38,424 bases of DNA from Nonlabens sp. (lineage in GTDB: Bacteria; Bacteroidota; Bacteroidia; Flavobacteriales; Flavobacteriaceae), in contig JALZUY010000089.1 of assembly GCA_023301395.1 (NCBI GenBank), positions 1 to 38,424 of the forward strand. Reading direction: 5' to 3'. Every line of letters begins with the position of its first letter. Positions within the stretch are counted from its first letter, which is position 1. The notes below the pieces were generated by a model. The model ran no database searches. It was given only the letters and a program-made list of their open reading frames with translations, and had not been told where the DNA came from. Below, piece after piece: positions 1 to 36,168 of this stretch. A program made the position numbers and the translations under genes.

Positions 1-1212
1 CACTTTAAGCACGTACTTGATGAAGCATTGAAGAACGATATTCATATCGAGACGTCTTCTGCTTTTGATGTAGACATCGTTGAGAACCTAAAATCACAAG
101 GTAAAATTACAAATGACACCTATGTTATTAGTAACGGTTTTAAGCGTGATCAATATGTTCAAAACCTTGCCCGTCTTATAAACAACGGTCACAAAAACTG
201 TATTGTGGTACTTGACAATTACGAAGAAATTAATCTCTTTGACCAAGTAGTCGATGGCAAGTATAATGTAGGTATCCGAATCGCTTCAGAAGAAGAACCA
301 AAATTTGAGTTCTACACCTCAAGACTAGGAATAGGCTATAAAAACATAGTGCCTTTTTACAATAACGAAATCAAGAATAACCCTAAGGTTACTCTTAAAA
401 TGTTGCACTTTTTTATCAATACAGGAATACGCGATACTGCCTATTACTGGAACGAGCTTTTAAAGTGTATGAAAGTCTATGTGAAGCTTAAAAAGGAGTG
501 CGCTACCCTAGACAGTTTAAATATAGGTGGCGGTTTTCCTATTAAAAACTCTCTGGCTTATGATTATGACTATGCGTATATGGTGAGCGAAATCATTCGT
601 CAGATTAAACAAGTTTGCGACGAGAACGATGTTGCTGTTCCTCATATTTTTACAGAATTTGGAAGCTTCACTGTTGGAGAAAGTGGCGGAGCTATTTATG
701 AAGTGTTGTACCAAAAACAACAAAACGATCGTGAAAAATGGAATATGATTAATTCATCATTCATAACGACACTTCCAGATTCTTGGGCAATTAACAAGCG
801 TTTTATAATGCTTCCAATAAACCGTTGGGATAAAGAATATGAGCGTGTATTGCTAGGTGGACTTACTTGTGATAGTGATGATTATTACAATAGTGAACAG
901 CATATGAATGCTATTTACTTACCTAAATACAGTCAAGACAAACCGTTATATATTGGCTTTTTTAATACTGGGGCGTACCAAGAAACCATAGGTGGTTTTG
1001 GAGGACTACAACACTGTTTGATCCCTACACCTAAACATATTCTTATTGATCGCGATGAAGATGGAAAGCTTGTTACTTCGGTATTTGCAGAGCAACAAAC
1101 ATCAGAGCAACTCCTATCTATTTTAGGATATGATTATGGGATTAATAACGCTTTCGCGAAAGCAAACCATTCAGATTCTGAAGTTTCTGAGGCTATAAAA
1201 TTATCATACTAA
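1..1212 (+). CDS. speA: Arginine decarboxylase (PLP-dependent, alanine-racemase fold), 5'-truncated by window edge
   Basis: Frame is open from base 1 (HFKHVLDEALKN...). Motifs LNIGGG, EFGSFTVG, LTCDSDD, TGAYQE; lies directly upstream of agmatinase. Confidence 0.9.
   Translation, partial: HFKHVLDEALKNDIHIETSSAFDVDIVENLKSQGKITNDTYVISNGFKRDQYVQNLARLINNGHKNCIVVLDNYEEINLFDQVVDGKYNVGIRIASEEEPKFEFYTSRLGIGYKNIVPFYNNEIKNNPKVTLKMLHFFINTGIRDTAYYWNELLKCMKVYVKLKKECATLDSLNIGGGFPIKNSLAYDYDYAYMVSEIIRQIKQVCDENDVAVPHIFTEFGSFTVGESGGAIYEVLYQKQQNDREKWNMINSSFITTLPDSWAINKRFIMLPINRWDKEYERVLLGGLTCDSDDYYNSEQHMNAIYLPKYSQDKPLYIGFFNTGAYQETIGGFGGLQHCLIPTPKHILIDRDEDGKLVTSVFAEQQTSEQLLSILGYDYGINNAFAKANHSDSEVSEAIKLSY
1150..1163. 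repeat. Palindrome GCTTTCGCGAAAGC, exact, in speA 3' tail
   Basis: Exact 14-mer, read as AFAKA. Confidence 0.9.
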
Positions 1213-1229
1213 GGAAAAATATTCATACA

Positions 1230-2165
1230 ATGACAACTCAAACATACGCTGGAATTCCAAAAGAGTTAGGCAAACTAGAAAACGCAAAAATAGTATTAAT
1301 ACCTGTTCCTTATGACGGAACTAGTACGTGGCAAAAAGGATCAGACAAGGGACCAGAAGCATTTTTAAACGCTTCAGAGAATATGGAACTCTACGATATT
1401 GAGACGGAAACAGAAGTATACAAACAAGGCATCCACCTCACAGATGCTATAACAGAAAATAGTTCTCCAGAAGCTATGGTGGATGCAGTACACGCCAGCA
1501 CAAAGAGTTATATAAAGAAGAACAAATTTGTTACCATTTTTGGAGGCGAGCATTCCATCTCTATAGGAACGATAAGAGCTTTTAACGAGTGTTATGATAA
1601 TCTAACAGTGCTTCAACTTGATGCGCACGCAGATTTAAGAAAAGAGTATGAAGGTTCTAACTTTAATCACGCCTGTGCAGTTTATGAAGCCAGCCAAACA
1701 ACAAATTTACTCCAAGTAGGCATACGCTCTATGGATATTTCAGAGACTACTGTAATGGATAAAGAGAAAACCTACTTTGCTCACGAGATGGCTGTAGATG
1801 ACTCTTGGATGGACTCATCGATTGATCAAATGACAGAAAATGTTTTTATCACTATTGATCTAGATGTATTTGACCCATCTATTATGCCTAGTACTGGTAC
1901 TCCAGAACCGGGCGGTCTTTTATGGTATGAAACATTGGAATACCTAAGTCAAGTATTTAAACACAAAAACGTGGTAGGGTTTGATATTGTAGAGTTATGC
2001 CCTAATAAGAATGATAAATCTTCGGATTTCTTGGCTGCCAAGCTTTACTATAAAATGTTAAGTTACAAATTCCAAGGTAACAATATCGAAGATGATTTCG
2101 ATAACGATTACCAAACAACATCAAAAAACAATACAACTAAATACAACGAAGACGATGAGTACTAA
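1230..2165 (+). CDS. speB: Agmatinase (ureohydrolase family)
   Basis: GGEHS, DAHADL, DLDVFDPS, PSTGTPEPGG Mn-binding ureohydrolase motifs; follows speA. Confidence 0.93.
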   Translation: MTTQTYAGIPKELGKLENAKIVLIPVPYDGTSTWQKGSDKGPEAFLNASENMELYDIETETEVYKQGIHLTDAITENSSPEAMVDAVHASTKSYIKKNKFVTIFGGEHSISIGTIRAFNECYDNLTVLQLDAHADLRKEYEGSNFNHACAVYEASQTTNLLQVGIRSMDISETTVMDKEKTYFAHEMAVDDSWMDSSIDQMTENVFITIDLDVFDPSIMPSTGTPEPGGLLWYETLEYLSQVFKHKNVVGFDIVELCPNKNDKSSDFLAAKLYYKMLSYKFQGNNIEDDFDNDYQTTSKNNTTKYNEDDEY

Positions 2166-3129
2166 AGGTCCAATTTCACAATTTATAGAAACGCATTATT
2201 TACATTTTAATGCAGCTGCACTTGTTGATGCGGCAAAAGGATATGAAGAACAATTAGCGTCTGGCGCAAAAATGTTAGTTTCTCTAGCTGGTGCAATGAG
2301 TACTGCAGAGTTAGGTAAAAGTTTTGCCGAAATGATTCGTCAAGATAAAGTACAGATTATCTCTTGTACAGGTGCAAACCTTGAAGAAGATATAATGAAT
2401 CTAGTAGCACACTCTCACTATAAGCGTGTACCAAACTATCGTGACCTAACACCACAGGATGAGTGGGATTTACTTGAGAAAGGATTAAACCGTGTTACAG
2501 ATACCTGTATTCCAGAAGAAGAAGCTTTTAGACGTTTACAAAAACACATCGTTAAGATTTGGAAAGATGCTGAGGATAAAGGCGAGCGTTTTTTACCGCA
2601 CGAGTATATGTATAAAATGTTACTCTCTGGAGTACTTGAAGAATACTACGAAATTGACTTGAAAGATTCCTGGATGTATGCCGCAGCAGAAAAGAACCTT
2701 CCCATTGTTTGCCCTGGTTGGGAAGACAGCACAATGGGAAATATTTTTGCAAGTTATGTGCTTAAAGGCGAATTGAAAGCGAGTACTGTCAAGTCAGGCA
2801 TTGAGTATATGACATTTCTAGCAGATTGGTATACAGATAATTCTAAAAAAGGCATAGGCTTCTTTCAAATAGGTGGTGGTATTGCTGGAGATTTCCCTAT
2901 TTGTGTTGTGCCTATGTTGTATCAAGATATGGAACGAACAGATACACCTTTCTGGAGTTACTTCTGCCAAATAAGTGATTCTACAACAAGTTATGGCTCA
3001 TATAGTGGAGCGGTGCCTAATGAGAAAATTACTTGGGGAAAGCTAGATATAGATACACCTAAGTTTATTATTGAAAGTGACGCTACCATAGTAGCACCAC
3101 TGATTTTTGCTTACTTATTAAATATGTAA
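2155..3129 (+). CDS. Deoxyhypusine synthase-like protein (probable homospermidine synthase)
   Basis: TGANLEED, IGGG, GSYSGA and EKITWGK (catalytic Lys of DHS family). Likely start is ATG at 2155 (MSTKGPISQF), overlapping the speB stop, rather than 2092. Confidence 0.88.
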   Translation: MSTKGPISQFIETHYLHFNAAALVDAAKGYEEQLASGAKMLVSLAGAMSTAELGKSFAEMIRQDKVQIISCTGANLEEDIMNLVAHSHYKRVPNYRDLTPQDEWDLLEKGLNRVTDTCIPEEEAFRRLQKHIVKIWKDAEDKGERFLPHEYMYKMLLSGVLEEYYEIDLKDSWMYAAAEKNLPIVCPGWEDSTMGNIFASYVLKGELKASTVKSGIEYMTFLADWYTDNSKKGIGFFQIGGGIAGDFPICVVPMLYQDMERTDTPFWSYFCQISDSTTSYGSYSGAVPNEKITWGKLDIDTPKFIIESDATIVAPLIFAYLLNM

Positions 3130-3131
3130 TT

Positions 3132-3416
3132 ATGGACACTAGAAAACGTGTTATCGTAGATTTTAAAAAACTGACACCAGAGTTGTTAGCACTTTTAGTA
3201 GAAAAGTACCCTGATGGGTATGATGATAATAATATTATCAAGTTTAAAAACGCTAAAAGCGAATGGATAGAGGCAGTGCAACTAGATACAGAAGATGCAA
3301 AGTATTTGGTAAAAGTGAGTACAAAACTAGCTGTAACAATGGAAAATTATGATGAGGATGATTACGCAGATTATGATGTTAACGATCCAGATGCAGTTCA
3401 AAATCCAAAGATCTAA
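3132..3416 (+). CDS. Small conserved hypothetical protein with acidic C-terminus
   Basis: 94 aa ORF 2 bp after the DHS-like stop; KRVIVDFKKL...LVEKYPDGY pattern typical of a Bacteroidota small-protein family; function unknown. Confidence 0.75.
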   Translation: MDTRKRVIVDFKKLTPELLALLVEKYPDGYDDNNIIKFKNAKSEWIEAVQLDTEDAKYLVKVSTKLAVTMENYDEDDYADYDVNDPDAVQNPKI

Positions 3417-3467
3417 TGAAGGTTATTAATAAAACACGACTACTAGCTATTAGGGATAGTAAAATAC

Positions 3468-4252
3468 GGTTCTGTCGCATTAACTCAATGAGAATATGAA
3501 ATGAGAGTTAACAATAAAATTAAGCAGCTAGACTACAGAAAGTTTTAAAAGTAGATTTCTTAGGATTCAAAATTTGATCCTTTCTAATCATGTGTACTAT
3601 TTCTATTCCTGCTAGAGTTCTTTGTGCTGATTCAAACTCTTTAAAACCTGTAGTGATTTTGATTCTCCTCTTTATACTTCTGTGATCTTGTTCTACAATA
3701 TTATTCAAGTATTTCACTCGTCGTATTTTAACCTTTTTAATACTGTTGTTTCGTTTATTCCAAGTCTTGATTCCTGCGGTATTAGAGCCGCTTTTATCAA
3801 TATTTATTATTCTGGGTTTACCATTATTCTTAATGGCTTTATTCAAGAATTTTTGAGCAGACCCTTTCATTCTTCGCTTGGTTAGAAGAATGTCTATGGT
3901 GCTTCCTTGTTTATCAACTGCTCGGTATAAATACATATCTCTACCACCTACTTTGATGTAGGTTTCATCTAGTCTCCAGCTATCAGTAATCTGTCGTTTA
4001 CGACGGTTCATGTTTTGTTCAATTTCTTTTGAAAACTTGAACACCCATCGCTGAATGGTAGAGTGATCCACCTGTACACCTCTAATAGCCATTAATTCTT
4101 CTACATCTCGATAACTCAAACTAAATCGCAGTTTAAAGTAAACTGCTTGCTGTATTACAATATGAGGATATCTATGACGGTGGTACATGTACTTATTTTA
4201 GAATCTCAAAACTAAGTATATTTGAAATTCTAAAAGTTAATGCGACAGAACC
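3468..4252 (-). mobile_element. IS6-family insertion sequence (785 bp)
   Basis: Perfect 18-bp terminal inverted repeats GGTTCTGTCGCATTAACT (3468-3485) and AGTTAATGCGACAGAACC (4235-4252) flanking a DDE transposase; no target-site duplication visible. Confidence 0.95.
3520..4188 (-). CDS. IS6-family transposase
   Basis: LSYRDVEE, HSTIQRWV, WRLDETY, YLYRAVD, NIDKS, LNNIVEQDHR motifs of IS6/IS26-type DDE transposases. Confidence 0.95.
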   Translation of the reverse strand: MYHRHRYPHIVIQQAVYFKLRFSLSYRDVEELMAIRGVQVDHSTIQRWVFKFSKEIEQNMNRRKRQITDSWRLDETYIKVGGRDMYLYRAVDKQGSTIDILLTKRRMKGSAQKFLNKAIKNNGKPRIINIDKSGSNTAGIKTWNKRNNSIKKVKIRRVKYLNNIVEQDHRSIKRRIKITTGFKEFESAQRTLAGIEIVHMIRKDQILNPKKSTFKTFCSLAA

Positions 4253-4481
4253 AAAAGCTGATTTTCTATTGGTTTATTTAGACATTTATGCTCGGTTATT
4301 TCTTTTCTTTTGATGAATATGAATTTAATGTTTAATCATTATTTATATGGTGTTATTTAAGATGACTTCAACTTTATAAAAAAAATCAGGATGTTTGTAC
4401 ACCTATTACCGTACAATCTATGAGTGAATAAGTTGATTTTAATGATCTTATTAGAGTAAATTCATTCCCTAAATACGAACC

Positions 4482-6779: not shown

Positions 6780-6833
6780 ATATTAGTTTTAATAAACACT
6801 CCTGTTAAATGAGTTCTATTTTTAAAGTATAAA

Positions 6834-6865
6834 AAAAATCCCTGATCTTACGATCAGGGATTTTT
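6834..6865. terminator. Bidirectional rho-independent terminator between convergent PL6 and SDR genes
   Basis: AAAAATCCCTGATC-TTAC-GATCAGGGATTTTT perfect hairpin with A/T tails on both sides. Confidence 0.85.
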
Positions 6866-6887
6866 ATATATAAAATAAACTCAGGTA

Positions 6888-7649
6888 TTAAATACCTAGA
6901 GCTTGTCCACCACCTATCTGAATAGTCTCAGCAGTGATGAATGATGCATCTTTACTTGCAAGGAAAGAAACAACACCAGAAACATCTTCTGGTTGACCTA
7001 GCCTACCTAACATAATGTTATTTGCCCATGAAGCAAATACCTCAGGCTTAGTAGATTTAATTTGAGAATGAAAAGGAGTATCGATAGTACCAGGAGATAC
7101 TGCGTTTACTCTAATCCCATATTCTGCAAGATCTTTTGCAAGTGCTCTTGTAATTGCATGAACACCAGCTTTAGAAGTTCCATAAATTCCAGCTCCAGGT
7201 CCACCAGCATTCCATGCTGCGTTTGAAGTGTAGTTAATGATAGAAGGATGTGTTCCTTTTTTAAGGAAAGGAATTGCTGCTCTTGAAGTAAAGAATACAG
7301 AATCTAAATTAAGAGCCATTACACCTCTATAAAAGTCTGTAGTCATTTCTTCAAAACGAGATCTTCCACCTAATCCACCTGCATTGTTCACAAGTGCATC
7401 TATTCTACCGTACTTCTCACCTATAGCAGCAACACTAGAATTTACAGCTTCTTCGTTTGTTACATCAAATTCCATAAACTCACAATCAATTCCGTGAGCT
7501 TTTAATTCTTCTACACGCTGATTTCCTAAATCTGCTTGAAGCCCATTAAGAACGACAGTATAACCGTCAAGTCCTAATCTTTTTGCTACTTCAAATCCTA
7601 TTCCACCAGTTGCTCCAGTTACAATAGCTACTCTACCTTTATTATTCAT
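6888..7649 (-). CDS. Short-chain dehydrogenase/reductase, probable DEH (4-deoxy-L-erythro-5-hexoseulose uronate) reductase
   Basis: TGATGGIG, NNAGG, YGTSK, VSPGTIDTPFH; position downstream of PL17 and kdgF. Confidence 0.85.
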   Translation of the reverse strand: MNNKGRVAIVTGATGGIGFEVAKRLGLDGYTVVLNGLQADLGNQRVEELKAHGIDCEFMEFDVTNEEAVNSSVAAIGEKYGRIDALVNNAGGLGGRSRFEEMTTDFYRGVMALNLDSVFFTSRAAIPFLKKGTHPSIINYTSNAAWNAGGPGAGIYGTSKAGVHAITRALAKDLAEYGIRVNAVSPGTIDTPFHSQIKSTKPEVFASWANNIMLGRLGQPEDVSGVVSFLASKDASFITAETIQIGGGQALGI

Positions 7650-7685
7650 ATTATTAATTATATTTAATTTACTTTTTATTAATTT

Positions 7686-8066: not shown

Positions 8067-8069
8067 GAT

Positions 8070-10274
8070 TTATAATTTTATTAGTTGATGCGGTCCTTCC
8101 CATGAATAGGAATTACCATTATATGTTATTGTATGATTTTTGTTATTATCTCGCTTTCGCGAAAGCGTATACAAATAAACATCTTCTCCAGTCTTAAAAG
8201 TTACCACGTCATAATCACCTTCTTGCTCATGTTTCAACTCTGAAATTACAGATTTAGGTTGCGCAACCGTTTCCTGTATAGGGTCAAAAAAACCATGTGG
8301 CTCGATGATATTTACAAAGGTATGAAATGATTGACCTTTAGGTTGTCTAATCAAATACTGTCGTTGCAAATTAAGATTAAACTCTGGATCATTTGCTCCG
8401 GTTTGTGTTATAAAAAGCTCCGTATTTGCATTTGTAATAGTCGTGATTGTATAGAAACGTTGTGATTGTAAAAACGTAAACTGAGTATTACTGGAACCCT
8501 TTTTAGGTGATCCTTTTGCAAGAATTTCTAAGTGATCATAACCATCATCAGTACCTAGCGCTGTTTTATTCACAGGTCTTGTGTAGTCAAATTGAGTATC
8601 AATTATGTCACCAAAAAACGGATAGTTCAAATCCATTTGATGACCCGTTTTTGAATCTATATGATATAAATCGATAATAAATGGTCGGTCAGAGATTGCT
8701 GGTTCATTAACCATAGTAATTGAACGAGATAAAAGAGTGTTATTATAAGCCATAGTATCCATAGCAATAGTCAACTGTAACCTCTCGTTATTCATATCGG
8801 TCTTAATGAGTTGAGAAACGTGTTCTTCAGAATATTTTACGTTTCCTTTATATTGAGATTGCTCATCAAGAACTACAGCTCCATGAGCTATAGTATGACG
8901 TGCATATGTTTTGTTCTCTGGTAAGTATCTTCCTCCACGTTTTGCTTCTATATTCAAGAAACGTGCTGCACCATAATCTGGCATGATTTCATTTCCATGA
9001 TCATAAACAGATAAACTTAATCTATCAAAATGTCCATGTCCCATTCCTTGCGTAGAGAATTTAAGAACGGCTTGCAGCTGACCATCTGTTTGTTGAGGAC
9101 TACGCATTAAGGTAAGACCACCACTTTTTCCCTCTACACCATCTGCAACGAACATACTAGGTCTGGCATAGAAATCATTTGTATCGTCAGTAATTGCATT
9201 TGCGGCAAGTGCACCAGCGTCTGTCAATGAGATTTTACCCATCATTTTAATCACAGGTAATAAACTTTCATCTTTATATTGTTTGTAGGCAATATTTGTT
9301 GCAAAAACAACCTCATCACTTTCCCAAGTCTTACTTTTTATAGCGTCATTAATAGGATAAAATCTTCCTTTCTCGTCTGTCAACTGTAACAATGTAGTAA
9401 CTGCTTTCTTTAAGATACCATCACGATGTTGAAAGATTTTCACATCAGGACGATTGTTTTCAATTGCCTCGGCAAATGCTATAAATGGCAGTATTGCATA
9501 CCTGTGATAATATGGACCTTCACTGTAGAATCCATCACTTGAAAATAAAGCATCTAATTGAGCGATAAATCCTGTTTTGCTGTCTTTATTACTTCCATAT
9601 ATAGAGCGCTCTACCATATCATCATCTCCTAGCACCATTCCAGTCATACCTACTGCAGCAACAGACCATGTTCCATGATTATGAATTTTATTGAAAACCT
9701 CATAACTATCAACACTCAAAAAAGTAGCCATAGGACGTAATAGGTCTTTTTCAATTTTAGATTTTTCCTCTTGTGATAGAAACTCACGACTCAAGTCATA
9801 AGCTTGTATCATATAAAACAGCGTTACAGCTTCATTAAGTCCTTGCCAGTATAATTTTCCAGCTGGGTGATTATTCTTAGACTTAGGATGCAATCCAAGT
9901 GTAGGATACATACTAGCGTATCCATCAAACATATTTTTTATGTAAGTGATTTTTTCTTCTCTAGGATTAAGGTTGTGAGAAATCGCCATGCGGTATAGTT
10001 CTGCATAGTTTTTTTTATGCTTCTCATGTGAAAATCCTCCACCAGCGTCTACCGGTTGTGGGATTTCAATGGGATTTTCTAAGATCTCAATTACTTGAAT
10101 CTCTAGTTCACTGGCTGATTTTTCAACGAGGTCACTTTGCGCATTATTAAAACTTTGAATACCATTGGATGTCAGTAAAAGCTGTGCACTGGACTTATTT
10201 GAATTTGATTCTACTTGTTCTTGACAAGAATAAAGAGCTACAGCAAAGCAAAGTACTAGAATTCTATATACCAT
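8070..10274 (-). CDS. PL17 exo-oligoalginate lyase (alginate lyase + heparinase II/III domains), lipoprotein
   Basis: AGGGFSHEKHK, WQGLNE, HNHGTW, EGPYYHRY, GMGHGHFD, DYGAARFLN motifs; lipobox LYSC. Confidence 0.92.
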   Translation of the reverse strand: MVYRILVLCFAVALYSCQEQVESNSNKSSAQLLLTSNGIQSFNNAQSDLVEKSASELEIQVIEILENPIEIPQPVDAGGGFSHEKHKKNYAELYRMAISHNLNPREEKITYIKNMFDGYASMYPTLGLHPKSKNNHPAGKLYWQGLNEAVTLFYMIQAYDLSREFLSQEEKSKIEKDLLRPMATFLSVDSYEVFNKIHNHGTWSVAAVGMTGMVLGDDDMVERSIYGSNKDSKTGFIAQLDALFSSDGFYSEGPYYHRYAILPFIAFAEAIENNRPDVKIFQHRDGILKKAVTTLLQLTDEKGRFYPINDAIKSKTWESDEVVFATNIAYKQYKDESLLPVIKMMGKISLTDAGALAANAITDDTNDFYARPSMFVADGVEGKSGGLTLMRSPQQTDGQLQAVLKFSTQGMGHGHFDRLSLSVYDHGNEIMPDYGAARFLNIEAKRGGRYLPENKTYARHTIAHGAVVLDEQSQYKGNVKYSEEHVSQLIKTDMNNERLQLTIAMDTMAYNNTLLSRSITMVNEPAISDRPFIIDLYHIDSKTGHQMDLNYPFFGDIIDTQFDYTRPVNKTALGTDDGYDHLEILAKGSPKKGSSNTQFTFLQSQRFYTITTITNANTELFITQTGANDPEFNLNLQRQYLIRQPKGQSFHTFVNIIEPHGFFDPIQETVAQPKSVISELKHEQEGDYDVVTFKTGEDVYLYTLSRKRDNNKNHTITYNGNSYSWEGPHQLIKL
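8152..8167. repeat. Palindrome CGCTTTCGCGAAAGCG, exact 16-mer, in PL17
   Basis: Read as TLSRKR. Confidence 0.9.
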
Positions 10275-10329
10275 GAAATGTTTTTAATTATTTACAGAAA
10301 TATAACCAAAGGAAATCGATTCAGAAATG

Positions 10330-10386: not shown

Positions 10387-10444
10387 TTGTTGTAGTCTTT
10401 TCTTATTGGCTTATAAACTTAATAGTCTTGAGAATGTGAAATTC

Positions 10445-10458
10445 GCTTACGCGAAAGC
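10445..10458. repeat. Palindrome variant GCTTACGCGAAAGC, intergenic
   Basis: One mismatch; just downstream of EamA stop. Confidence 0.8.
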
Positions 10459-11400: not shown

Positions 11401-14400
11401 CTATACAGAGAATTTCTTAGAATAAATTGATGGAGTTTCTCCATAAGCTTTTTGAAAGCATTTACTAAAATATTTAGGATTTCTAAACCCTACTTTATAA
11501 CTCACCTCAGAGATGTTTAATCCTCCTAATTCAAGAAGTTGTGCAGCTCGTTTCATACGAAAATGTTGAATGAATTCATTTGGTGTGAAGTTGGTCCATG
11601 CCTTAACCTTAATAAAAAGCATGGTCCTACTTACTCCTAATTCTGAACAAAATGTAGGTACATCAAATTGGTCATTAGGAATATTGTCTTCAACAATTTG
11701 AATTGCCTTTTTCATCAATTCATTATCTACTGACGATACATTAATTTCGTCTGGTGATAAAACGTCAGTTGCCGTAAATTTATCTTTCAATTTTGCTTTA
11801 TAAAGCAAAAGATTCTTTACTCTTAATTGCAATTCTCTAATGTCAAATGGTTTACTTAAGTAATCGTCGGCACCACTTTCTAGACCTTCTATTTTGTATA
11901 TAAGAGAGGTTCGAGATGTTAAAAGTATTACTGGAATATGACTCGTTCTAGCGTCTCCCTTTACTTTAGAACACAACTCTGTACCTGTCATTTTAGGCAT
12001 TACCACATCACTTATAATGATATCTGGATTATTATTTACAATAATTTTAAAAGCTTCTTCACCATTACCAGCCTCTAGAACGTTATAATATTGACTTAAT
12101 AATTGAGACATAAATGACCTTAAGGAGGCATTATCTTCTACAACTAAAACATTTAACTTCTCATCATCATTAATAAAACTTAGACCTTTTACCTCATCCA
12201 TAGTTCCCATCTTATCAATATGATCAGTATATTGAGTAACATCATCACTAAACTTAAAATCAGCTATTATTTCCTTATCAATTAAATGGTCTTTACCTAA
12301 TTTAAGTGCTACGGTAAAAGACGAACCTTCATCCAACTTACTTTTTAAAGCAACAGTACCTTTATGTAAATGGATTATGTTTTTTGCTATATTCAAACCT
12401 ATTCCGGTTCCTTGTGTATAGGTATTCGGCTTTTCACGATACGCTTCTATTTCATAAAAACGGTCAAAAACTTTTTCTTGTTTCTCTGGAGCGATACCTA
12501 TACCACTATCTTTAACCTTAATAAAAATGTGATTTTTATCTCTTGAAACTCTTATTTTAATAGTTCCTCCATGAGCAGTAAATTTGAATGCATTTGAAAT
12601 GAGATTAAAAAAGGCTCGTTCTAACTTTTGACGATCATAGTAAACCAGAATTTCCTCATCAGTCGTTTTAAAATCAAAATTATAGTCGCCTAGCTTGGCA
12701 TGTTCCTCAAAACTGAGATAAATTTCTTTTAAAAACTTAACAATATTCCCTTGTGCTGCTTGTAACTCAAATTGATTCTTTTCTAATTTTCTAAAATCCA
12801 TCAACCTATTAATAAGTTGTAGTAATTGCTGTCCATTACTCTCAATAGTTAGCAACTTTTTATACATTAAATTGCTCCCTTTATAATCAGTCAACAATTG
12901 CTGTAGAGGTCCTAGAATAAGTGTTAATGGCGTCCTGAACTCATGGGAGATGTTTGTAAAGAACTGGAGTTTTGCCTCGTTTATATCTCGATTCCTTTGC
13001 AATTGAACTTGTTCAAATTTCAATTCTTCTTGGAGCCTCGTTTTAGATTTAAGAATTCTTACCAAAAAATATCCAACTGCAAAAAACGCAAGTGCATATA
13101 ACAAGAAGGCCCACCAGCTATACCATGGTGCAGGAATCACCTCAATATCAAGTTTTGTTATGTCACTTTTAATTCCATCGCCATTAACACCACGTACTTC
13201 AAATTGGTAATCTCCAGCATTCTGTATCGCATAAGTCGCCTTATTCTCAACCGTTGTATTCCATTTAATCTCTAGGCCTTTTAGTCTATATTCATAAGTT
13301 TTACTAGTTAAATTATGATAACTAGGCATGGTGAATTCTATGGTGAAATTGCGCTGATTGTGATTGATTTGAACCGTTTTCGCAAAAGCGATATTCTCTA
13401 CCTCATTATCGTTCCCATTGAACTGTAGTAATTCATCACTTGTCGATTTTAAGTTAGTAATTAGAACTTGAGGAGCGTAATCATCGATTCGGATTTTAGT
13501 AGTATTAAAGGATGAAATACCGGCAACACTTCCAAAGAATAATTGATCTTGAGCTAGACGTAATACAGCGTTATCACTAAATTCATTTCCTACTAGACCA
13601 TCTTTTTGCTGATTTAAGGATAATATTTTTAAACTGTTTTTATTTAATTTTAAAACACCTTGATTACTACTCATCCACAGCATTCCATTACCATCTTCAA
13701 CTATGGAATGTATAGTCGTAATATCTTTATCTGCCCATTTTAAAGGAATCTTAACAAATTGATTATTGACTTTTTTAAATAAACCTTGAGATTTTGTTCC
13801 AGCCCAAATCGTATGCCGACTATCTTCATAAATATTAAGAACATCAAATCCTGCGTCTTGTTCTTTATTGAAAAGAAAATTTGAAATTTCGTCAGTAGTA
13901 TCTAGACTATTAAGACCGTTTTGGGTTCCTATCCATAAAACATCTTTTTGATCAATCAGTAAACATCTTATTAAATCGCTAGTTAAACCATTATTTCTTG
14001 TAGCTAAATAACCACTCAGCCCAGTTGTGCTTGACTGGAAAAGAACTCCTTTCCCTGATGTTCCAAAATATATTTTATCAGTATCTTTCACTATCGAGTA
14101 GACACCAGTATGAGGCAATTCTGACTGTAAAGGTTTTGAGATCAAATCTTTTATAAAACGCTTTTCATCAATATTATACACATCAATCCCTTTACTAGAT
14201 GTTCCTATATACAGGAGATTACCATCAAGAAATAATGATTTAATATCATTCTCTTTTAGCGCACTGTTATCGCTTGTTATATAATCAAAATTGTTTTTCT
14301 CTAAATCTAAAACATTAACACCACCTTGCTCCGTACCTATAAATAATTGATTTTCAAATAATTGCAAAGAATTTACTACTGAATAATTCAATCCTTTATT

Positions 14401-18969: not shown

Positions 18970-19491
18970 TTATTTTTCTTCAATTAATTCATGTAAAAGA
19001 TCTAGAACATCACTAAAATGAGCTTCTAAATTCTCATATTCCTCTTCACCTGGAATCCAATTTGCAAATTGCCAGTAGCGCCACTTCTTCATATTATTAA
19101 CTGGCGGTAGTAAAAGAAAAATTTGTTCTTCATCAATTCCACCTATTAAAATACTTTCCTTGAATTGCAAAGCTGTTTCTTCAAATCCACCGATATCATC
19201 GTAAAAATCTAAGGAACCTTTAAAATGCTTAAAATTCTTAAGGTAGTCTACATTTTCAGTAGGTGAGAAAGTTATATCAATGCTAGACGTTGCATTGAAC
19301 CCATTTGATGTTTTTAAAAATAACTTATAGTCATCTGGTAATTCAATACCTAATCTTGTTTCTAGGATAATAATATCACTTTGTGTGGCTGCATCTTTTC
19401 CTAACCACTTTTCAATTATTTGTTTTTCATTGAATTGAGAATCTTCTAATTCAATAGCCTTGATTGAAATTTGCTCTAACAGTTTTCTCAT
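18970..19491 (-). CDS. SMI1/KNR4 (SUKH) family protein
   Basis: ATQSDIIILETRLGIELPDDYKLFLKTSNG is the SUKH N-terminal signature. Confidence 0.85.
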   Translation of the reverse strand: MRKLLEQISIKAIELEDSQFNEKQIIEKWLGKDAATQSDIIILETRLGIELPDDYKLFLKTSNGFNATSSIDITFSPTENVDYLKNFKHFKGSLDFYDDIGGFEETALQFKESILIGGIDEEQIFLLLPPVNNMKKWRYWQFANWIPGEEEYENLEAHFSDVLDLLHELIEEK

Positions 19492-19513
19492 TTTTAAATA
19501 TCTATATAATTAT

Positions 19514-19527
19514 GCTTTCGCGAAAGC
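19514..19527. repeat. Palindrome GCTTTCGCGAAAGC, exact, intergenic
   Basis: Upstream of SMI1/KNR4 start. Confidence 0.9.
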
Positions 19528-19574
19528 GTAATCACACTCAAACTTAAATAATTTAGGATAATATGTGTGACTCT

Positions 19575-19621
19575 TATAAACAACAATTCCAACCTTTTAT
19601 AAGTTGGAATTGTTGTTTATA
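19575..19621 (-). terminator. Long hairpin terminator after PL7 gene (end of the SusC operon)
   Basis: 19-bp perfect stem TATAAACAACAATTCCAAC / GTTGGAATTGTTGTTTATA with 9-nt loop. Confidence 0.8.
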
Positions 19622-21896: not shown

Positions 21897-22706
21897 CTAG
21901 TGTTCAATAATTTCAAAGTCAGCAAATCTCACTTGCTCATCTCTTAATTGATCTGAATGTTTTAAACTGCGATAAAGTCCCCATTTGGGTCTTAAGAATT
22001 GAGCATTATCTTTCCACATCCTGAGATCTCCTTTATAACTTATAAGTTCTTTGTTGTCTCGCTTTCGCGAAAGCGTAACATCTAAACTTCCCTTTTCACC
22101 AAAGACAATCGTTTCTTCAACCACAATCCATTCTCCTAGAAAAGGTTCTAAGTCGGTACTTATTATGCTTTCTTGTTCCAAATTAACAGAATGACGGATA
22201 TCAAAAGTTTTCTTGTCTCTTTTGTCTCGCAAAGTATACGTAAGAGTAGGCATTTTATCCTGTGATCCACCTACCGCTTTTATTTGATGGATATGAGTAA
22301 ATCCAGCCGAGGCTTGAAAATCTTTATCTAACTTAAATAGCCATTTATAAGTATGTGTTTCATCGTTTGTAGCCAGTGTATTTTCAGGAGATTCACTGTA
22401 GGTTTTAATTTCTGTACGTTGTTTATCAAATCGCTTACAACGATCTGTATCCTTATCTACATGTCCATGGAAAATGAATACATCTTTTTCTAACTCTTTA
22501 TCAAAAGCTTGAGTAATATGCGCTCCAAATGACGGATGACTGCAATCGCTTACTTCTACAACATTGTTTCCTGGTGCTAACACAGAATTAACGAGTTCAT
22601 AAGTATCTTTATTACTATCTGCCTCCAGAATGGTGGAAACAGTAACAGCCCTATCTTGCTTAAAAAGCATAAATAGGACTGCTATTGAAATGAATGTGTA
22701 TTTCAT
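21897..22706 (-). CDS. Secreted polysaccharide-lyase-like beta-jelly-roll protein (heparin lyase I-like superfamily), unclassified
   Basis: N-terminal hydrophobic signal; QRTEIK, FTHIHQIK, RPKWGLYR parallel the RxE / QxH / KxGxY motifs of jelly-roll lyases. Confidence 0.6.
   Translation of the reverse strand: MKYTFISIAVLFMLFKQDRAVTVSTILEADSNKDTYELVNSVLAPGNNVVEVSDCSHPSFGAHITQAFDKELEKDVFIFHGHVDKDTDRCKRFDKQRTEIKTYSESPENTLATNDETHTYKWLFKLDKDFQASAGFTHIHQIKAVGGSQDKMPTLTYTLRDKRDKKTFDIRHSVNLEQESIISTDLEPFLGEWIVVEETIVFGEKGSLDVTLSRKRDNKELISYKGDLRMWKDNAQFLRPKWGLYRSLKHSDQLRDEQVRFADFEIIEH
22060..22075. repeat. Palindrome CGCTTTCGCGAAAGCG, exact 16-mer, in lyase-like gene
   Basis: Read as TLSRKR. Confidence 0.9.
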
Positions 22707-22707
22707 A

Positions 22708-25700
22708 TTATTTCACAAGGAATTGTATTGTTTCAGAACCTTGAGCTGTCTTTACATTTACAAAATATGTACCAGTTTGTAATGAACTGATATTTATTCT
22801 ATTTGAAAACTCATTAACAATCATTACTTCTTGACCAGTAACATTGAAAATAGATAATGAAGTCCAGTTTGTATCTTCTAATTCAATAGATAAAAAATCT
22901 GTTGCTGGATTAGGGTACAATAAAATATTAGTAAGTAAATTATCCTCATTAGATAGTGTACTATTTTCAAATGCGATTGCAAAACGGTCTAACGCACTAC
23001 TTGCATTTACATCATCAATGGCAAATGATACTTCATTCATCCCAGAATTATTTAAAGCTGTTCTAGTTCCTAAGAAGTTATCTACTAGAGCTACATTGAA
23101 CCCTACAAATGTACTTACATCAATTCTAAAGGTATAATTAGCATCTCCATAGTTAGTAATGTTTAATGGAAACATCATCCCATCCTGAACTTGAGAAATA
23201 GATTGAACACCGTACTGTGCTGCATTTGTTCCCACAATAGATAAAGTCTCATCTAGATTTGTAGGTTTTAAGAAATCTTGATTATCGTTTACATTTGAAA
23301 AAGTATGATCTACTCTTAGCATTACTGCATCCGTAGGAGAGCTGTTTACTTGTAAAGAAGCAGTGTCAAATAAGGTAACAACTAATTGGTTTGAAGCAGT
23401 ATTGTTGATTCCAAAAACGGTACTTGAACTAAGATCTGTAGATGTTCCTTTATCGCTTTCGCGGAAGCGTAATACCATATCATTTCCAGCTCCATTTGCT
23501 CCAGTAGTTGCAACTACAAATGCTGCTTGACCTGGTTGAATAAAGTCAGAATTAGGACTTGATGGTAATGCTGTTGCTATTCCTCCAGCTGCAAAACCAC
23601 TAACTGTAGTGTAAGCTCCACGACCATTCAATCCACCTAGATTAGGATCCCAGTAATAGATAACGTCATTATTTACATTATCTGAATTTGCAAGGATTGA
23701 TTCCATATCTACAGCAGATTGGTATGGATTACCTATGAATACGAATTCATTTTCTTCTACATCATAATTAAGAGTTTGATCTCCTTGATTTACAGTTCCA
23801 GTAGTTGATAGTGTGGTTGCGCTAGCTGCAATTGAACCTGATAATCTAGACATATCTCTATCTCCTCTTATAAAAACACGATATGCATCCATTGCAGTTA
23901 ACTCATCACCTGATTGGTTAGTACTTGTTAAAGCATCCCAAGTTTGATTTGTATCATTTGAATATCTAAACGCTGATACATTTCCACTAACTGTTTGATC
24001 AAATCCAGTTGTCATATCTACCGTTCCTGCAGTTCCTGCAGCACCAGTAATATGAGTTCCTTTACCAGCTACACTAGCACCAGCTTCTTGCCAGTTATCA
24101 TAGATAGTTGTTGTAGTTGTTACTGGAGATGATAAGAATCTATAAACTCTACCATCAACAGCTGTTGAAATTGGTATAAATCTCTCAGCAATAAAATCTC
24201 CTGTAATACTTGATGTTGCCGGTAATTCATTAATTACGGCTGTACTTGTCGCTGTATTTTTTAATGTAAATGTTCCTGTATTATCAAAATCACCTGTTGA
24301 AATCGTCAATTCATTGTATAAATCTACTGTTGAACTGGAAGACAATCCTGCAGCATTATCTAAATCAATTGTACCTAAACTCACAGTTCCTGCTCCAGAA
24401 ATCATTTGGCTCGTATTACCATTAAAGAATACAATTGCATCGTTTGCGTTTAGATCACCATTTACAAGAACATTTTCTGATACAGTAAGTACAACATCCA
24501 TATCTACATTCATTGATCCCGAAGTTTCAATATTAATACTTTGAATAATCGTGTTTGATGTTAATGTCGCTGTTCCATTTAAAACTACTAAGTCTGCTGT
24601 TGTATTTGTATTACCACTAGCATCATTAAATGGTGCTAACCATGCGTTATCATAAGTAAATACTTTATTGAAGTCGTTAGGTAAACCTGGTGTACCAAAT
24701 GAGTTTGATACTGTACCAAAAGGAGTTATTGCAAAATCCCAAGCCTCGCTATCATCATTATCATTTACATCAAAAAATGAAAAACCTAACTCTAGACTCG
24801 CACCATCATCTTGACCTTGCGTAGGGAATCCTATAGGAGCAGTTCCATAACCATAATCATAATCAACTCTATCTAATTCTAATCCAGTTACTGATACTAT
24901 AAAGACACCATCAATTTCATTATCATCAGGAGTCCCGTCATCAAAAGAAGATTCGTTATTAAACCTAGGGTAATCAGTTCCAGGAGCTGATGGACCTCCT
25001 ACAGGAGAATTAAAACCATATGCATATAATACATTAGTGATTCCACCATTCATACTAGAATCTGTTGTAGGTGAAAGAACGCCATAAGAATTTGCCAAAA
25101 GCATCACTGGTGCAGCTGCTGTTATTACGTGAGCTCTTCCACTAGAAGATGAATCCCCTATAGTCCACCCAACAAGATCTATATCATTATCAGTTGTATT
25201 ATAAATTTCAATCCATTCTGTATTTGCTTCAGATCCGTTAGCATCTATCATGATTTCAGTTATCAGAACATCGCCTGGAGCTAAAACACCACTACTAAAA
25301 CCAAAGTTTGCGGTTCCTGGAGTACCTCTATAGTCTGTACTATTAAAGGATCCAAAAATATTTGTGCTCGCTACCCAATTTGCAGCTGCATCGTTTGATG
25401 CAGAGTCTAAGGTATTTCCATTTAATTGATAACTCACAGAAGATGCAGCTCCTTGATCAGGCCAAGCATTCAATCCATTATACCCAAAACCATAAAGAAT
25501 ATTATCAATAGTTATGGTTCCTCCCATACCGTCAGGCGCAATTAGTTCTATTCCATCATCATTAGTAGAACCACCACTATAAGTACTTTCATTATTCCAC
25601 GTAGGGAATCCTGAATTTGACATTCCAGTTGCTGCTCCATATACATAAACAGTATTAGGAAGAGTTATTGCTACATTTGAGTCATCATTATAAACAAACA

Positions 25701-25986: not shown

Positions 25987-26026
25987 TGGTTCTTTTTAAT
26001 TTAAGTAATTGAATTGAATGTACTAT

Positions 26027-27466: not shown

Positions 27467-27481
27467 CTTGTTTTTTAATCC

Positions 27482-29875
27482 TTAATTAATTAATCCTATA
27501 TTTTTCTTGTCAGTTGCTGCTCCTTTAAGAGCAGAACTTTCTTTAATTGTAAATGTATCAGTGTTTTCCCATTTAGGATTAAATCTTTCTAATTTAACCT
27601 TTTGAGAATTTCCACTCAATTTGACTTTACCACTGTTATAAATTACACAGTTTTCAATTCTATGAGTTTCTTCTTTGAGCTGTACGATACTATTAGTAGC
27701 TCTTGAATTATCTATTACTGTGTTCTTAATATGAACATTTTTTAAACCTTGTACCTTAATAATTCTTCCTTTTTCTGAATCATCTACTTTATAAAAAACA
27801 CAATGATCTACTACTAGATTACCACCAGATGTTCCTTGTTGCTCACCACTACGAGAGTAATTAATCGCAAACTGAGAAATATCAGCAAATGATGTGTTGT
27901 GCATTATTATATGTTCTGCGTTATACTTTCCCGTTTGATCTTTCTCATATGAAAGATTAAATCCTCTAAAAGAATCTCTAAATGTTGAATTCTTGACAGA
28001 AATAGTATCAGCCTTAGTACCTACATATGCTTTAAAGATAGCACCACCATCTGAATTACTAAAGTTTACAAAAGCAACGTCATCTAAATACACATTATAA
28101 AGAGCACTTGTTGCATTGTTAGGTGAAGTGATACCGTACTTTACAGCATCACCTTTTGTGTTACCATCTATATGAACACCTGTAATTTTTAAACTTTTTG
28201 CTCCATCCATTCTCAAAATATACTGAGGAGTTTTAGCAGCGCTTTCACTAATCTTGATAAAAGTTTTTCCTTTTCCGGCACCTATAATGGTTAAGTCTTG
28301 ATTTACCTTATTTGCTTTAGATAAATAATAAGTTCCTGCTGTTAATTTAAGCACAGTAGGTCCAGACATTTTTCTTATCGCTTTACCAAGAGTGTTTTCG
28401 CCAGGCTCTATTTCAATTACTGATTTTGGCAACACTTGTTTCATTTCTCTTAAATCTTCTATTTTTAAATAGCTCACACCAGCTTGAGATGTTAATGCAA
28501 GTGCTGGTTTAAAGTTCCCAGGAACTATTGCGCCAGCTCTAATTGCAGATCTTAAAGCTCCTGTTGCATCTACTCTAACTTTAGGACTCGTTTTAGGAGA
28601 TGCTAGTAAAGCATCACTTTCTTTAGAAGGAACATAAATTCCATTTGAAGCTTCCATAGAAACATCAACAGCATCTACTCCATCGTAATCCTCGATAAGT
28701 GTTGAACTTACTTTATTTCCAGAAAATGAGATTCCGCTTACATCATCTCCAGCAAGAATAGCGAGACCACGAACAGAACTGTAAATATGATTGTTCTGAA
28801 AAATTGTATTTGATGGAACTACAGTCGCCTCTTTCTTAGAACCTACCGCTAGTGCAATTGGACTGGAGTTAATGACCGTATTATTTTGCATAATCCCGTC
28901 TATTACTGGGTCATATCCATTAAGCTTAGAATTAGGAATACCATTCATTATTGATAAAGGAGCTCGCAATTCCTTTCCAGCGATACCTATTAAAATATTA
29001 TTACGTACAATATTTCCTTTGTTGATCATGCGTATCCCACCAGTCTTAGGTAAATTACTTCCTATAATTACGTTTCCTTCTACAAGATTATAATCTCCGT
29101 GACGTAATGTAATCGTTCCTTCACTATCTAATATTAGGTTATTACGTACTATGTTATGAGCAGATTTTATAGAGATTATTTCCATCTCACCACTACATCT
29201 TTCAAAGAAATTATTTTCAATTACTGTTTTAGAAGATTGTTTAGAATAAGTAGAAGTCCCTACTCTTATAGTCTCTCCACCATTAAAGCCTAGAGGTAAT
29301 CTTTCTCCAAAATAGTTATGATCGATTCTATGATTATTATCAATACTATTCTTTAACCTTACCGCGATGGCAGGACCTTTATTTAACTTACCTAATAAGC
29401 TACAATGATCTACTCTGTTATTTAATCCATGAAGACCGATATAATAATTTGTAATATCTCTAGAATCGGCATTAACATTAATTATAGCACAGTTAGTAAC
29501 TCGTGAATTATTTGCAGGTGTTTCACTATCTGCTTGAAATCTAATCACATTGTTCTTACCTACATTACCGTCTTCAAACCATAATCCATGAACCTCAAGA
29601 TACTCACCACCTATTCTCAAGGTAGAACTACCGGTTAATTTCACTTTTCCTGGAGTTTGAGATCTTAAGACAATAGGCTTCTCAGCAGTACCAGTTGCTT
29701 TGAATTTAATATTCACATCCTTCCATTCATTATTAACCATAATAATGGTATCACCTGGCTTAGCACTTTTTATAGCACTATTCAATTCAGATAAATTTTT
29801 AACTGGTATAGACTGCGCTTCCGCGAAAGCGAAACACAACATAAACCATATTACTATGTGAAAGTTTCTTTTCAT
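27482..29875 (-). CDS. Second PL6 alginate lyase (two beta-helix domains), SPI signal
   Basis: AKPGDTI, GERLPLGFNGGETIRVG, EMEIISIKS, TLRHG, MNGIPNS; ATG overlaps susD TAA (TAATG). Confidence 0.9.
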   Translation of the reverse strand: MKRNFHIVIWFMLCFAFAEAQSIPVKNLSELNSAIKSAKPGDTIIMVNNEWKDVNIKFKATGTAEKPIVLRSQTPGKVKLTGSSTLRIGGEYLEVHGLWFEDGNVGKNNVIRFQADSETPANNSRVTNCAIINVNADSRDITNYYIGLHGLNNRVDHCSLLGKLNKGPAIAVRLKNSIDNNHRIDHNYFGERLPLGFNGGETIRVGTSTYSKQSSKTVIENNFFERCSGEMEIISIKSAHNIVRNNLILDSEGTITLRHGDYNLVEGNVIIGSNLPKTGGIRMINKGNIVRNNILIGIAGKELRAPLSIMNGIPNSKLNGYDPVIDGIMQNNTVINSSPIALAVGSKKEATVVPSNTIFQNNHIYSSVRGLAILAGDDVSGISFSGNKVSSTLIEDYDGVDAVDVSMEASNGIYVPSKESDALLASPKTSPKVRVDATGALRSAIRAGAIVPGNFKPALALTSQAGVSYLKIEDLREMKQVLPKSVIEIEPGENTLGKAIRKMSGPTVLKLTAGTYYLSKANKVNQDLTIIGAGKGKTFIKISESAAKTPQYILRMDGAKSLKITGVHIDGNTKGDAVKYGITSPNNATSALYNVYLDDVAFVNFSNSDGGAIFKAYVGTKADTISVKNSTFRDSFRGFNLSYEKDQTGKYNAEHIIMHNTSFADISQFAINYSRSGEQQGTSGGNLVVDHCVFYKVDDSEKGRIIKVQGLKNVHIKNTVIDNSRATNSIVQLKEETHRIENCVIYNSGKVKLSGNSQKVKLERFNPKWENTDTFTIKESSALKGAATDKKNIGLIN
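29816..29831. repeat. Palindrome variant CGCTTCCGCGAAAGCG in PL6 signal peptide
   Basis: One mismatch; read as AFAEA at the signal-peptidase site. Confidence 0.85.
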
Positions 29876-31362: not shown

Positions 31363-31373
31363 AGTTGTAATTT

Positions 31374-34550: not shown

Positions 34551-34652
34551 TTAATTTACTCTATAAAACCATTAGTAAGGAGTGATAATCCCAAAGGGTC
34601 TTATTTTGTAAAACAAAAAGGGATATACTCCTTTATTAATTACTATTTATTA

Positions 34653-35372: not shown

Positions 35373-35387
35373 AATTTATAAAAACAA

Positions 35388-35415
35388 AATTGGTTCACCA
35401 ATCTGGTTGCCCAAA
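35388..35415 (-). promoter_or_regulatory. Putative GntR tandem operator (autoregulatory, also controlling susC operon)
   Basis: AATTGGTTCACCAATCTGGTTGCCCAAA; overlaps near-consensus promoter TTTG(35443-35440)-20 nt-TTAATTTG(35419-35412). Confidence 0.8.
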
Positions 35416-35511
35416 TTAAAGTGTTATCATAGAGATATCCAAATATTATGTGAAAATAATTTACGATATGAACATAAATCGCCTATAAAATCAAGAAATT
35501 GTTAATAACGA

Positions 35512-36168
35512 TTAGGAATATAACTGAGTTGCAATGTCAACAGCTTGTTGAATATCGATTTGCAGATTTTCAAAATCACCTTTGTTAATTTTGTTTTTAT
35601 CAAATAATTGACTTCCCATCCCTACACAATTGACACCAGCATTAAACCATTCTTCAAGGCCATTACTTGTAGGGATGATTCCACCTGTAGGCATTATCGC
35701 AAGTTGAGGTAGGACAGATTTAACTGCTTTCGCGAAAGCGGAACCTATCACATTTGCTGGAAATATTTTAATCATCTCACAACCCAAATGCATTGCGGTA
35801 GTCGCCTCTGTAATAGTAGCGATTCCAGGAATATAAGCCATATTATTTTGAATACAGTAAGAACCCAGTTCAGGAACAAGACCTGGTGATACTATAAACT
35901 GAGCTCCTGCAGCTACAAATTCTCTTGCCGTTGCACTGTCATATATTGTTCCTACTCCTATTATATAGTCTGGATATTTCTCAAAATGCTTTACCGCTTC
36001 AGTAAAAGTTTCTATTCCATTACTACCACGATTTACAAATTCAAAGATACGCACACCACCTAGATAGGATGCTTCCATAGTTTGAATAGTAATGGCAGCA
36101 CTTTCATTAAAAAAAACGGGCACTATTTTATGATCACTTGTTAAGCTTATAAAGTCTTGTATTCTCAT
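35512..36168 (-). CDS. eda: KDPG/KHG aldolase
   Basis: GVGTI, GAQFIVSP, PGIATITE, KIFPA, MPTGGI, VGMGS. Confidence 0.9.
   Translation of the reverse strand: MRIQDFISLTSDHKIVPVFFNESAAITIQTMEASYLGGVRIFEFVNRGSNGIETFTEAVKHFEKYPDYIIGVGTIYDSATAREFVAAGAQFIVSPGLVPELGSYCIQNNMAYIPGIATITEATTAMHLGCEMIKIFPANVIGSAFAKAVKSVLPQLAIMPTGGIIPTSNGLEEWFNAGVNCVGMGSQLFDKNKINKGDFENLQIDIQQAVDIATQLYS
35726..35739. repeat. Palindrome GCTTTCGCGAAAGC, exact, in eda
   Basis: Read as AFAKA. Confidence 0.9.

What the first reader, a model, noticed from the sequence alone, without database searches (positions are those of the whole stretch)
1150..35739. Highly iterated GC-rich palindrome (C)GCTTTCGCGAAAGC(G) embedded in unrelated genes in all three frames
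Seen: five exact 14-mers (1150, 8153, 19514, 22061, 35726), three one-mismatch copies (10445, 23455, 29817) and one two-mismatch copy (13376), roughly one per 4-5 kb. It is translated as AFAKA/AFAEA, LSRKR and RFRES in different genes and also occurs intergenically, so selection acts on the DNA, not the protein. Assuming about one-third GC (estimated by eye), an exact 14-mer is expected about 3e-5 times per window. Four copies are followed by GTA on the + strand, hinting at an oriented longer consensus. There is no target duplication, transposase or REP-like clustering. Inference: a genome-wide DNA signal analogous to cyanobacterial HIP1, DNA uptake sequences, or chromosome-organising sites (parS/matS/NBS-like), bound or generated by an unidentified protein. 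I do not know a named system for this motif.
Basis: partly seen in the sequence, partly recalled or inferred. Interest (0 to 1): 0.85.

Follow-up and report, generated by a model that had tools for sequence, protein, structure and literature searches.

The report
Evenly spaced genome-wide palindrome tag
Two groups of marine flavobacteria carry one 14-16-base palindrome about every 4-5 kb, written into genes by point changes and kept nearly letter-perfect; it likely serves as a protein-read "own DNA" tag that biases DNA uptake and recombination, but the reading protein is unknown.

Summary
The window has the 9 copies listed, and its genome has 298 exact and 140 one-mismatch copies. All 26 other genomes of the genus tested (inferred to be Nonlabens) and two Dokdonia-type genomes have 312-858 copies; the other 296 family genomes have 0-16. 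The scan noted this motif before on other DNA.

- Spacing is strongly even: 2 gaps under 1 kb against 44.5 expected.
- The site is mirror-symmetric, not oriented. Its arms are G/T-rich and C-poor to about 25 bp; in this genome T-blocks recur every ~18.6 bp out to ~57 bp.
- Sites arise stepwise by substitution.
- They are absent from two Nonlabens phages without integrase, a plasmid contig and a 91-kb cluster, sparse in two resident prophages, but host-like in five selected phage records.

No shared methyltransferase, REP transposase, extra ParB, SMC, secretin or gene transfer agent was found; ComEC and DprA are intact. The best reading is an uptake/recombination tag like USS or HIP1 (45%), with an intracellular chromosome-organising site close behind (33%). 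My paper searches found no description of it.

The parts
1150..1163 (.). exact palindrome, near the end of ORF 1-1212 (+), reads AFAKA
8153..8166 (.). exact palindrome in ORF 8070-10274 (-), reads LSRKR; strong arms
   Evidence: outer-flank score 8.6
10445..10458 (.). one-mismatch copy, intergenic
13376..13389 (.). two-mismatch copy in ORF 11401-15429 (-), reads AFAKT; arms match, so probably a true site
   Evidence: outer-flank score 4.7; random mean -7.3
19514..19527 (.). exact palindrome, intergenic, 22 bp before the start of ORF 18970-19491 (-)
19464..19577 (.). example of the full inferred footprint: core plus symmetric arms to about 57 bp from the centre (G/T-rich and C-poor on the 5' side of each strand)
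   Evidence: extent from the genome-wide profile; not shown for this copy alone
22061..22074 (.). exact palindrome in ORF 21897-22706 (-), reads LSRKR; strongest arms in the window
   Evidence: score 12.0
23455..23468 (.). one-mismatch copy in ORF 22708-25986 (-), reads RFRES
29817..29830 (.). one-mismatch copy at residue 16 (signal-peptide region) of ORF 27482-29875 (-), reads AFAEA
35726..35739 (.). exact palindrome in ORF 35512-36168 (-), reads AFAKA

Best explanation
The palindrome is a lineage-specific DNA site, evenly spread and kept by selection on the double-stranded sequence, that likely acts as a self-DNA tag: an unidentified two-fold-symmetric protein would bind the core and its G/T-rich arms and favour uptake and recombination of tagged fragments. 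Shown: abundance, even spacing, mirror symmetry, stepwise origin by substitution, conservation, and absence from recently acquired DNA. Inferred: protein binding. Inferred and untested: the uptake role. In this model biased uptake plus homologous recombination drives new sites up in loosely constrained spots (intergenic DNA, signal peptides, variable stretches). A second site on the same fragment adds little, which would give the even spacing. DNA that has not long recombined within the clade stays untagged.
For: The genomic behaviour is that of uptake sequences and HIP1. Of 298 exact copies, 174 are in ORFs (frames 93/40/41) and 124 in the 11% of DNA outside ORFs. Orthologues in motif-poor genera differ at 6-12 of 14 bases in 10 of 11 comparisons, with no nearby gap in 9 of 11. 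Diverged island copies show graded intermediates: of 139 non-independent comparisons, 75 identical, 17 one-off, 41 with 2-9 differences and 6 gapped. Within the genus 11 of 11 G000 sites differ by at most 1 base, against 13% of control 14-mers and 28% where the amino acids are identical. The chance of meeting the next site rises from about 0 below 1 kb to 0.6 per kb at 8-12 kb. There is no bias by gene strand or intergenic orientation. Large site-free blocks are tolerated: 91 kb in G001, a ~34-kb prophage with 0 sites and a ~40-kb prophage with 3 in G008, and a 29-kb Mob-bearing contig with 0. Phages P12024S and P12024L have none at up to 2 mismatches. ComEC is full length in 5 of 5 motif-rich genomes and DprA in 6 of 6. 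Precedent from papers: palindromic HIP1 raises transformation (PMC13756078, abstract and section 14 read), and Riemerella prefers its own DNA (PMC7965970, passages read).
Against: ComEA-like genes are in 21 of 21 motif-poor genomes and DprA in 4 of 4, so these genes do not mark the clade; ComEC was not searched in motif-poor genomes. No secretin was found in 6 of 6 motif-rich genomes, so the type IV pilus route of Neisseria and Haemophilus is missing. There is no shared methyltransferase of the three families searched, unlike HIP1. [quoted passage not shown] Classical uptake sequences are non-palindromic and about 30 bp at most (recalled), whereas the footprint here may reach ~115 bp. Five phage records carry 5-6 sites in 24-40 kb, but they were picked for having several.
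Confidence: 0.45

Rival explanations
1. Intracellular chromosome-organising site: a sequence-specific dimer would bind the core and nucleate a phased protein array or wrap of up to ~115 bp every 4-5 kb, setting loops or supercoil domains.
For: The site is mirror-symmetric. After codon-phase correction, T-blocks lie at 14-20, 33-39 and 51-56 bp from the centre, period 18.6 bp; pooled bootstrap 18.7 (17.8-19.35), n=626. Near-total exclusion below 1 kb. Depletion in genes with high-expression codon bias, 20.8 down to 0.9 per 100 kb with the sites masked. The longest gap in G000 is the ribosomal-protein cluster, 13,989 bp. No SMC-sized protein in 3 motif-rich genomes.
Against: Gaps of 34-91 kb are tolerated. 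Two motif-poor relatives also lack SMC. HU/IHF, ParB, GyrA and ParC have ordinary copy numbers. The outer 18.6-bp repeat is weaker in other Nonlabens loci (49 sites) and not clear in the Dokdonia set (83 sites) or in G254 and G274 separately. The depletion may simply reflect protein constraint.
Confidence: 0.33
2. Repair, recombination or topoisomerase hot spot: a two-way Chi-like or gyrase-like site where DNA is cut or unwound and RecA or a topoisomerase is loaded; even spacing would limit resection or torsion.
For: The G/T-rich, C-poor arm lies 5' of the core on each strand, the side where RecA loads after Chi. The 18.6 period equals the RecA helical turn (both recalled). Spacing is similar to that of E. 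coli Chi (recalled).
Against: Lone half-sites are at background: 26 of 774 GCGAAAGC words lack the left half, against 7-57 counts for six control words. Chi is short, polar and single-stranded (recalled). Gyrase flanks have a ~10.7-bp period (recalled), which is not dominant here. GyrA of motif-rich genomes is ordinary in length.
Confidence: 0.12
3. Relic or product of a mobile element (REP, MITE), a packaging signal of a gene transfer agent, or an RNA hairpin or terminator.
For: Perfect palindrome, about 5-fold denser outside ORFs.
Against: No length change in most orthologues. No left-right covariation beyond the profile (largest z 2.6 of 36 tests). No preference for convergent regions (0.73-0.97 sites per kb across the four classes). 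Y1 transposase absent in 2 of 5 motif-rich genomes. Terminase and portal present in only 1 of 5.
Confidence: 0.05

Closest known systems
HIP1 (GCGATCGC) of cyanobacteria
   Same: Hyper-abundant GC-rich palindrome in and between genes, spread by substitution, conserved, non-randomly spaced; transformation and chromosome-structure roles both proposed (PMC5861425 passages; PMC13756078 abstract and section 14).
   Different: 14-16 bp rather than 8, unrelated sequence, Bacteroidota host, long symmetric arms, and no shared cognate methyltransferase found.
DNA uptake sequences (USS of Pasteurellaceae, DUS of Neisseriaceae)
   Same: Long near-perfect motif at hundreds of sites, coding sequence rewritten, even spacing (PMC1939737 passages), base preferences in the flanks, scarce in recently acquired DNA.
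   Different: Palindromic, lower density (1 per 4-5 kb), not paired as terminators, no secretin, uptake bias not shown.
ParB/Noc family sites (parS, NBS), also matS and SlmA sites
   Same: 14-16-bp perfect palindrome with a TTTC..GAAA-like centre, read by a dimer (family traits recalled).
   Different: 300-860 copies rather than a few to about 70 (recalled); written into genes; one ParB with canonical parS already present; no regional limit seen.
Chi sites (RecBCD/AddAB)
   Same: Similar spacing and a G/T-rich 5' context (recalled).
   Different: Needs the whole palindrome; half-sites are not enriched.
REP/BIME elements with RAYT; Rickettsia palindromic elements
   Same: Palindromic, many copies, some in genes.
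   Different: No insertion, clustering or covariation; Y1 transposase not shared.

Membership tests
HIP1 | sequence GCGATCGC or a close variant | tested here: not met
   the consensus is (C)GCTTYYGCRRAAGC(G)
HIP1 | over-represented, conserved, made by substitution, non-random spacing | tested here: met
HIP1 | cognate DNA methyltransferase shared by carriers | tested here: not met
   PF00145 absent in 6 of 16 motif-rich genomes, PF01555 in 5 of 12, PF02086 in 10 of 12; G007 and G008 (99% complete) lack all three. Type I and Eco57I-type families were not searched.
DNA uptake sequences (USS/DUS) | sequence-biased DNA uptake | not testable with these tools
   needs an uptake assay
DNA uptake sequences (USS/DUS) | type IV pilus/secretin uptake machine | tested here: not met
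   secretin PF00263 in 0 of 6 motif-rich and 2 of 4 motif-poor genomes
DNA uptake sequences (USS/DUS) | intact downstream competence genes | tested here: met
   ComEC 5 of 5, DprA 6 of 6 motif-rich, ComEA-like 15 of 16 motif-rich (missing only in 78%-complete G000); DprA and ComEA-like genes also occur in motif-poor genomes
DNA uptake sequences (USS/DUS) | genome-wide, even, scarce in recently acquired DNA | tested here: met
parS/NBS (ParB family) | a dedicated ParB-family reader and a regional distribution | tested here: not met
   one ParB per genome in 5 of 5, conserved, with 2 canonical parS in G000; sites run across 0-3.0 Mb of G001 (the listing stopped there)
Chi | short polar word enriched on its own | tested here: not met
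   lone half-sites at background
REP/MITE | insertion with length change, clustering, associated Y1 transposase | tested here: not met
gene transfer agent packaging signal | conserved terminase and portal genes in all carriers | tested here: not met
   PF03237 and PF04860 in 1 of 5; other terminase families not searched

The most novel reading that the evidence does not exclude
The sites are sequence-positioned nucleoprotein beads: an unknown dimer nucleates a ~115-bp symmetric array with an 18-19-bp repeat every 4-5 kb. This would give these SMC-less bacteria a chromosome scaffold encoded in the genome, strong enough to rewrite hundreds of proteins and to be copied by some temperate phages. 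No such system is known to me.
Probability: 0.2. Interest if true: 0.93.

Novelty: new variant of a known kind. Interest (0 to 1): 0.74.

Why it matters
Only a few lineages are known to flood their genomes with one selected motif (USS, DUS, HIP1), and whether such motifs serve uptake or an internal role is a long-open question. This is an independent case in Bacteroidota, with a sharp boundary between carrier and non-carrier genera and cultured members on both sides. The 14-16-bp site is long enough for a clean pull-down. It would reveal either a pilus-free, methylase-free route of sequence-specific DNA uptake or a new chromosome-organising protein. The motif also works as a provenance mark: islands in other genera that carry it have likely passed through these hosts.

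Tried and rejected
Oriented consensus: rejected.

Hairpin or cruciform arms: no covariation beyond the profile. One unexplained exception: the symmetric double variant with TT..AA inside the core occurs 16 times.

Sequence dialects in other genera: no comparable dispersed palindrome in 20 kb from each of 20 motif-poor genomes, while control G001 was found. The samples are small, so sparse dialects would be missed.

Reader candidates: HU/IHF, GyrA/ParC, ParB, SMC, three methyltransferase families, ComEA-like, tyrosine recombinases (judged by counts and sizes only), Y1 transposase, terminase and portal and secretin. None marks the motif-rich genomes. Listing G000 proteins shared with about 0.5 Mb of Dokdonia-type DNA gave no candidate (output partly cut).

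Five of the six best matches to an island protein are in motif-rich genomes, so spill-over from those hosts is simpler.

Temperate phages generally carry sites: not supported by the unbiased test.

Plasmid BLAST gave 2 chance-level hits. Contig-end enrichment was weak, 17 against 11.6.

Monophyly of the carriers is unresolved. GyrA gives two separate strong clades. RecN and RecF five-taxon trees group the carriers against two non-carriers (SH-aLRT 93 and 84), while XerC and XerD are unresolved.

Paper searches found no description of the motif (judged from listings only). Subscription journals and supplements are outside these searches and could hold one.
Full report
Observation. The genome G000 (2.46 Mb, 78% complete, 35% GC) has 298 exact, 140 one-mismatch and 70 two-mismatch copies, and the motif supplies all 25 of the commonest 14-mers. 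Of the exact copies 174 are in ORFs (frames 93/40/41) and 124 in the 11% of DNA outside ORFs. Fifty of 230 copies in complete genes fall in the first tenth of the gene.

Distribution. All 24 genus genomes of the first draw have 312-858 copies, and 0 of 16 genomes from other families of the order have any. Among 300 family genomes, two more of the genus (722 and 581), G254 (409) and G274 (797) are rich; the other 296 have 0-16. I infer that the window's genus is Nonlabens and that G254 and G274 are Dokdonia-type lineages. G254 keeps the same motif at about 46% GC. Twenty-kb samples of 20 motif-poor genomes showed no substitute palindrome. Whether the carriers form one clade is unresolved.

Anatomy. 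The core is (C)GCTTYYGCRRAAGC(G). GCTT, the central GC and AAGC are nearly fixed, and the two bases either side of the centre tolerate transitions. Both halves are needed, since only 26 of 774 right half-sites lack the left half. On each strand the DNA 5' of the core is G/T-rich and C-poor: C falls to 2-4% at 12-14 bp from the centre. This holds inside and outside genes and on sense and antisense strands. After correcting for codon position, T-rich blocks sit at 14-20, 33-39 and 51-56 bp, a period of 18.6 bp with a 9.3-bp overtone; the pooled bootstrap gives 18.7 (17.8-19.35). The inner arm, to about 25 bp, repeats in G274 and in phage sites, and more weakly in G254. The outer repeat is clear in G000, weaker in 49 other Nonlabens sites and not clear in 83 Dokdonia-set sites. 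Left and right arms do not covary, so the arms reflect sequence preference rather than pairing. This points to a two-fold-symmetric protein on double-stranded DNA (inference).

Spacing. Of 195 gaps between sites with at most one mismatch, 2 are under 1 kb against 44.5 expected. The rate of meeting the next site climbs from about 0 to 0.6 per kb with distance. The Dokdonia-type pieces show the same trend more weakly: of 62 gaps, 6 are under 1 kb against 13.4 expected, and 17 are 3-4 kb against 6.9. Subsets of sites run across the first 3.0 Mb of complete genome G001 with both orientations of the flank about equal. Intergenic density does not depend on gene orientation. Sites are depleted in genes with high-expression codon bias; conservation and expression cannot be separated here.

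Evolution. Within the genus sites are held: 11 of 11 differ by at most one base, and 48 of 74 two-way rows in a wider set are identical. With Dokdonia-type orthologues only 3 of 17 and 3 of 26 positions are shared, so positions have turned over or arisen separately. Motif-poor orthologues mostly show no gap. A metal-resistance island explains the low counts in the seven motif-poor genomes where I looked, apart from a few sites in other cargo genes. Its copies, 70-95% alike, show every intermediate state, and its closest relatives lie mostly in motif-rich genomes.

Mobile DNA. Phages P12024S and P12024L, whose records annotate no integrase, have no site. A 29-kb Mob-bearing contig has none. Two resident prophages of G008 have 3 sites in ~40 kb and 0 in ~34 kb, beside host DNA with one per ~3 kb. 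A 91-kb stretch of G001 with giant ORFs that look like peptide synthetases (my reading of the translations) is empty. Against this, five phage records chosen for multiple hits carry 5-6 spread sites in true phage DNA; two have integrases and one looks Mu-like. Site content therefore seems to follow time spent in these hosts (inference).

Mechanism. No tested family marks the carriers: HU/IHF, gyrase and topoisomerase IV, ParB, SMC, three methyltransferase families, Y1 transposase, terminase, portal or secretin. ComEC is intact in the five carriers searched; DprA and a ComEA-like gene are intact in carriers and non-carriers alike. I favour an uptake/recombination tag (0.45) because sharp near-perfect copies, rewritten proteins, spacing that rises with distance and tolerated foreign gaps are the profile of USS and HIP1. 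An intracellular organiser (0.33) better explains the symmetry, the long phased arms and the tight spacing. A repair or topoisomerase site gets 0.12 and mobile-element or RNA readings 0.05. No binding, uptake or in vivo occupancy was shown.

Comparison and novelty. It works like HIP1 and USS but fails membership of both on sequence, methylase and pilus. From papers I read passages of PMC5861425, PMC7965970 and PMC1939737, and the abstract and section 14 of PMC13756078. Searches for the motif and for these genera with palindromes found no description (listings only). Three earlier notes of this scan report the same motif in other genomes. The arm structure, half-site test, phage and prophage contrast and island provenance were not in the lines of those notes that I saw. 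Traits of Chi, RecA, gyrase, parS/NBS and USS flanks are recalled, not looked up.

Verdict. A real, selected and apparently undescribed hyper-abundant palindrome of two marine Flavobacteriaceae lineages: a new variant of a known kind, interest 0.74.

Noticed in passing
window 4482-37165: The window looks like an alginate-use locus (lyase-like proteins, TRAP transporter, SusC/SusD pair, sugar kinase and aldolase, GntR-type regulator), judged from the translations without a family search; it carries sites at host density.
   Followed up: no
window 3520-4188 (-): An ORF that looks like an IS6-family transposase sits in the window's longest gap between sites (1150 to 8153).
   Followed up: no
L001, L002, L392-L411: A copper/heavy-metal efflux island with an integrase, in seven motif-poor genomes, keeps the sites letter-perfect at 70-95% identity; the motif acts as a mark of passage through Nonlabens or Dokdonia hosts.
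   Followed up: yes
L392:12640 against its G143 counterpart: In one island copy a 24-base piece is inserted into the middle of a site; another copy shows an odd peptide insert at the matching signal-peptide position of a different gene. Small repeats may target these sites.
   Followed up: no
G341-G345 (L527-L536): Five phage records of about four distinct types (G344 and G345 are close kin) carry 5-6 spread sites with host-like inner arms, while two prophages in G008 have few or none.
   Followed up: partly
G001:C1:131.7-222.9 kb (L004, L537-L539, L005): A 91-kb cluster of giant ORFs that look like NRPS/PKS genes has no site.
   Followed up: partly
genus g1 and G254: The ~710-aa helix-hairpin-helix protein (Tex-sized) found in many relatives and in G274 was not found in any of the 14 genus genomes searched or in G254.
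   Followed up: no
G000 contigs C19, C61, C126: Probable contaminant contigs: ATP-synthase and cold-shock genes unlike flavobacterial ones and a 44% GC contig without sites.
   Followed up: no
G000 whole genome: TTCGAA is strongly avoided (73 copies against 1569 of TTGCAA).
   Followed up: no
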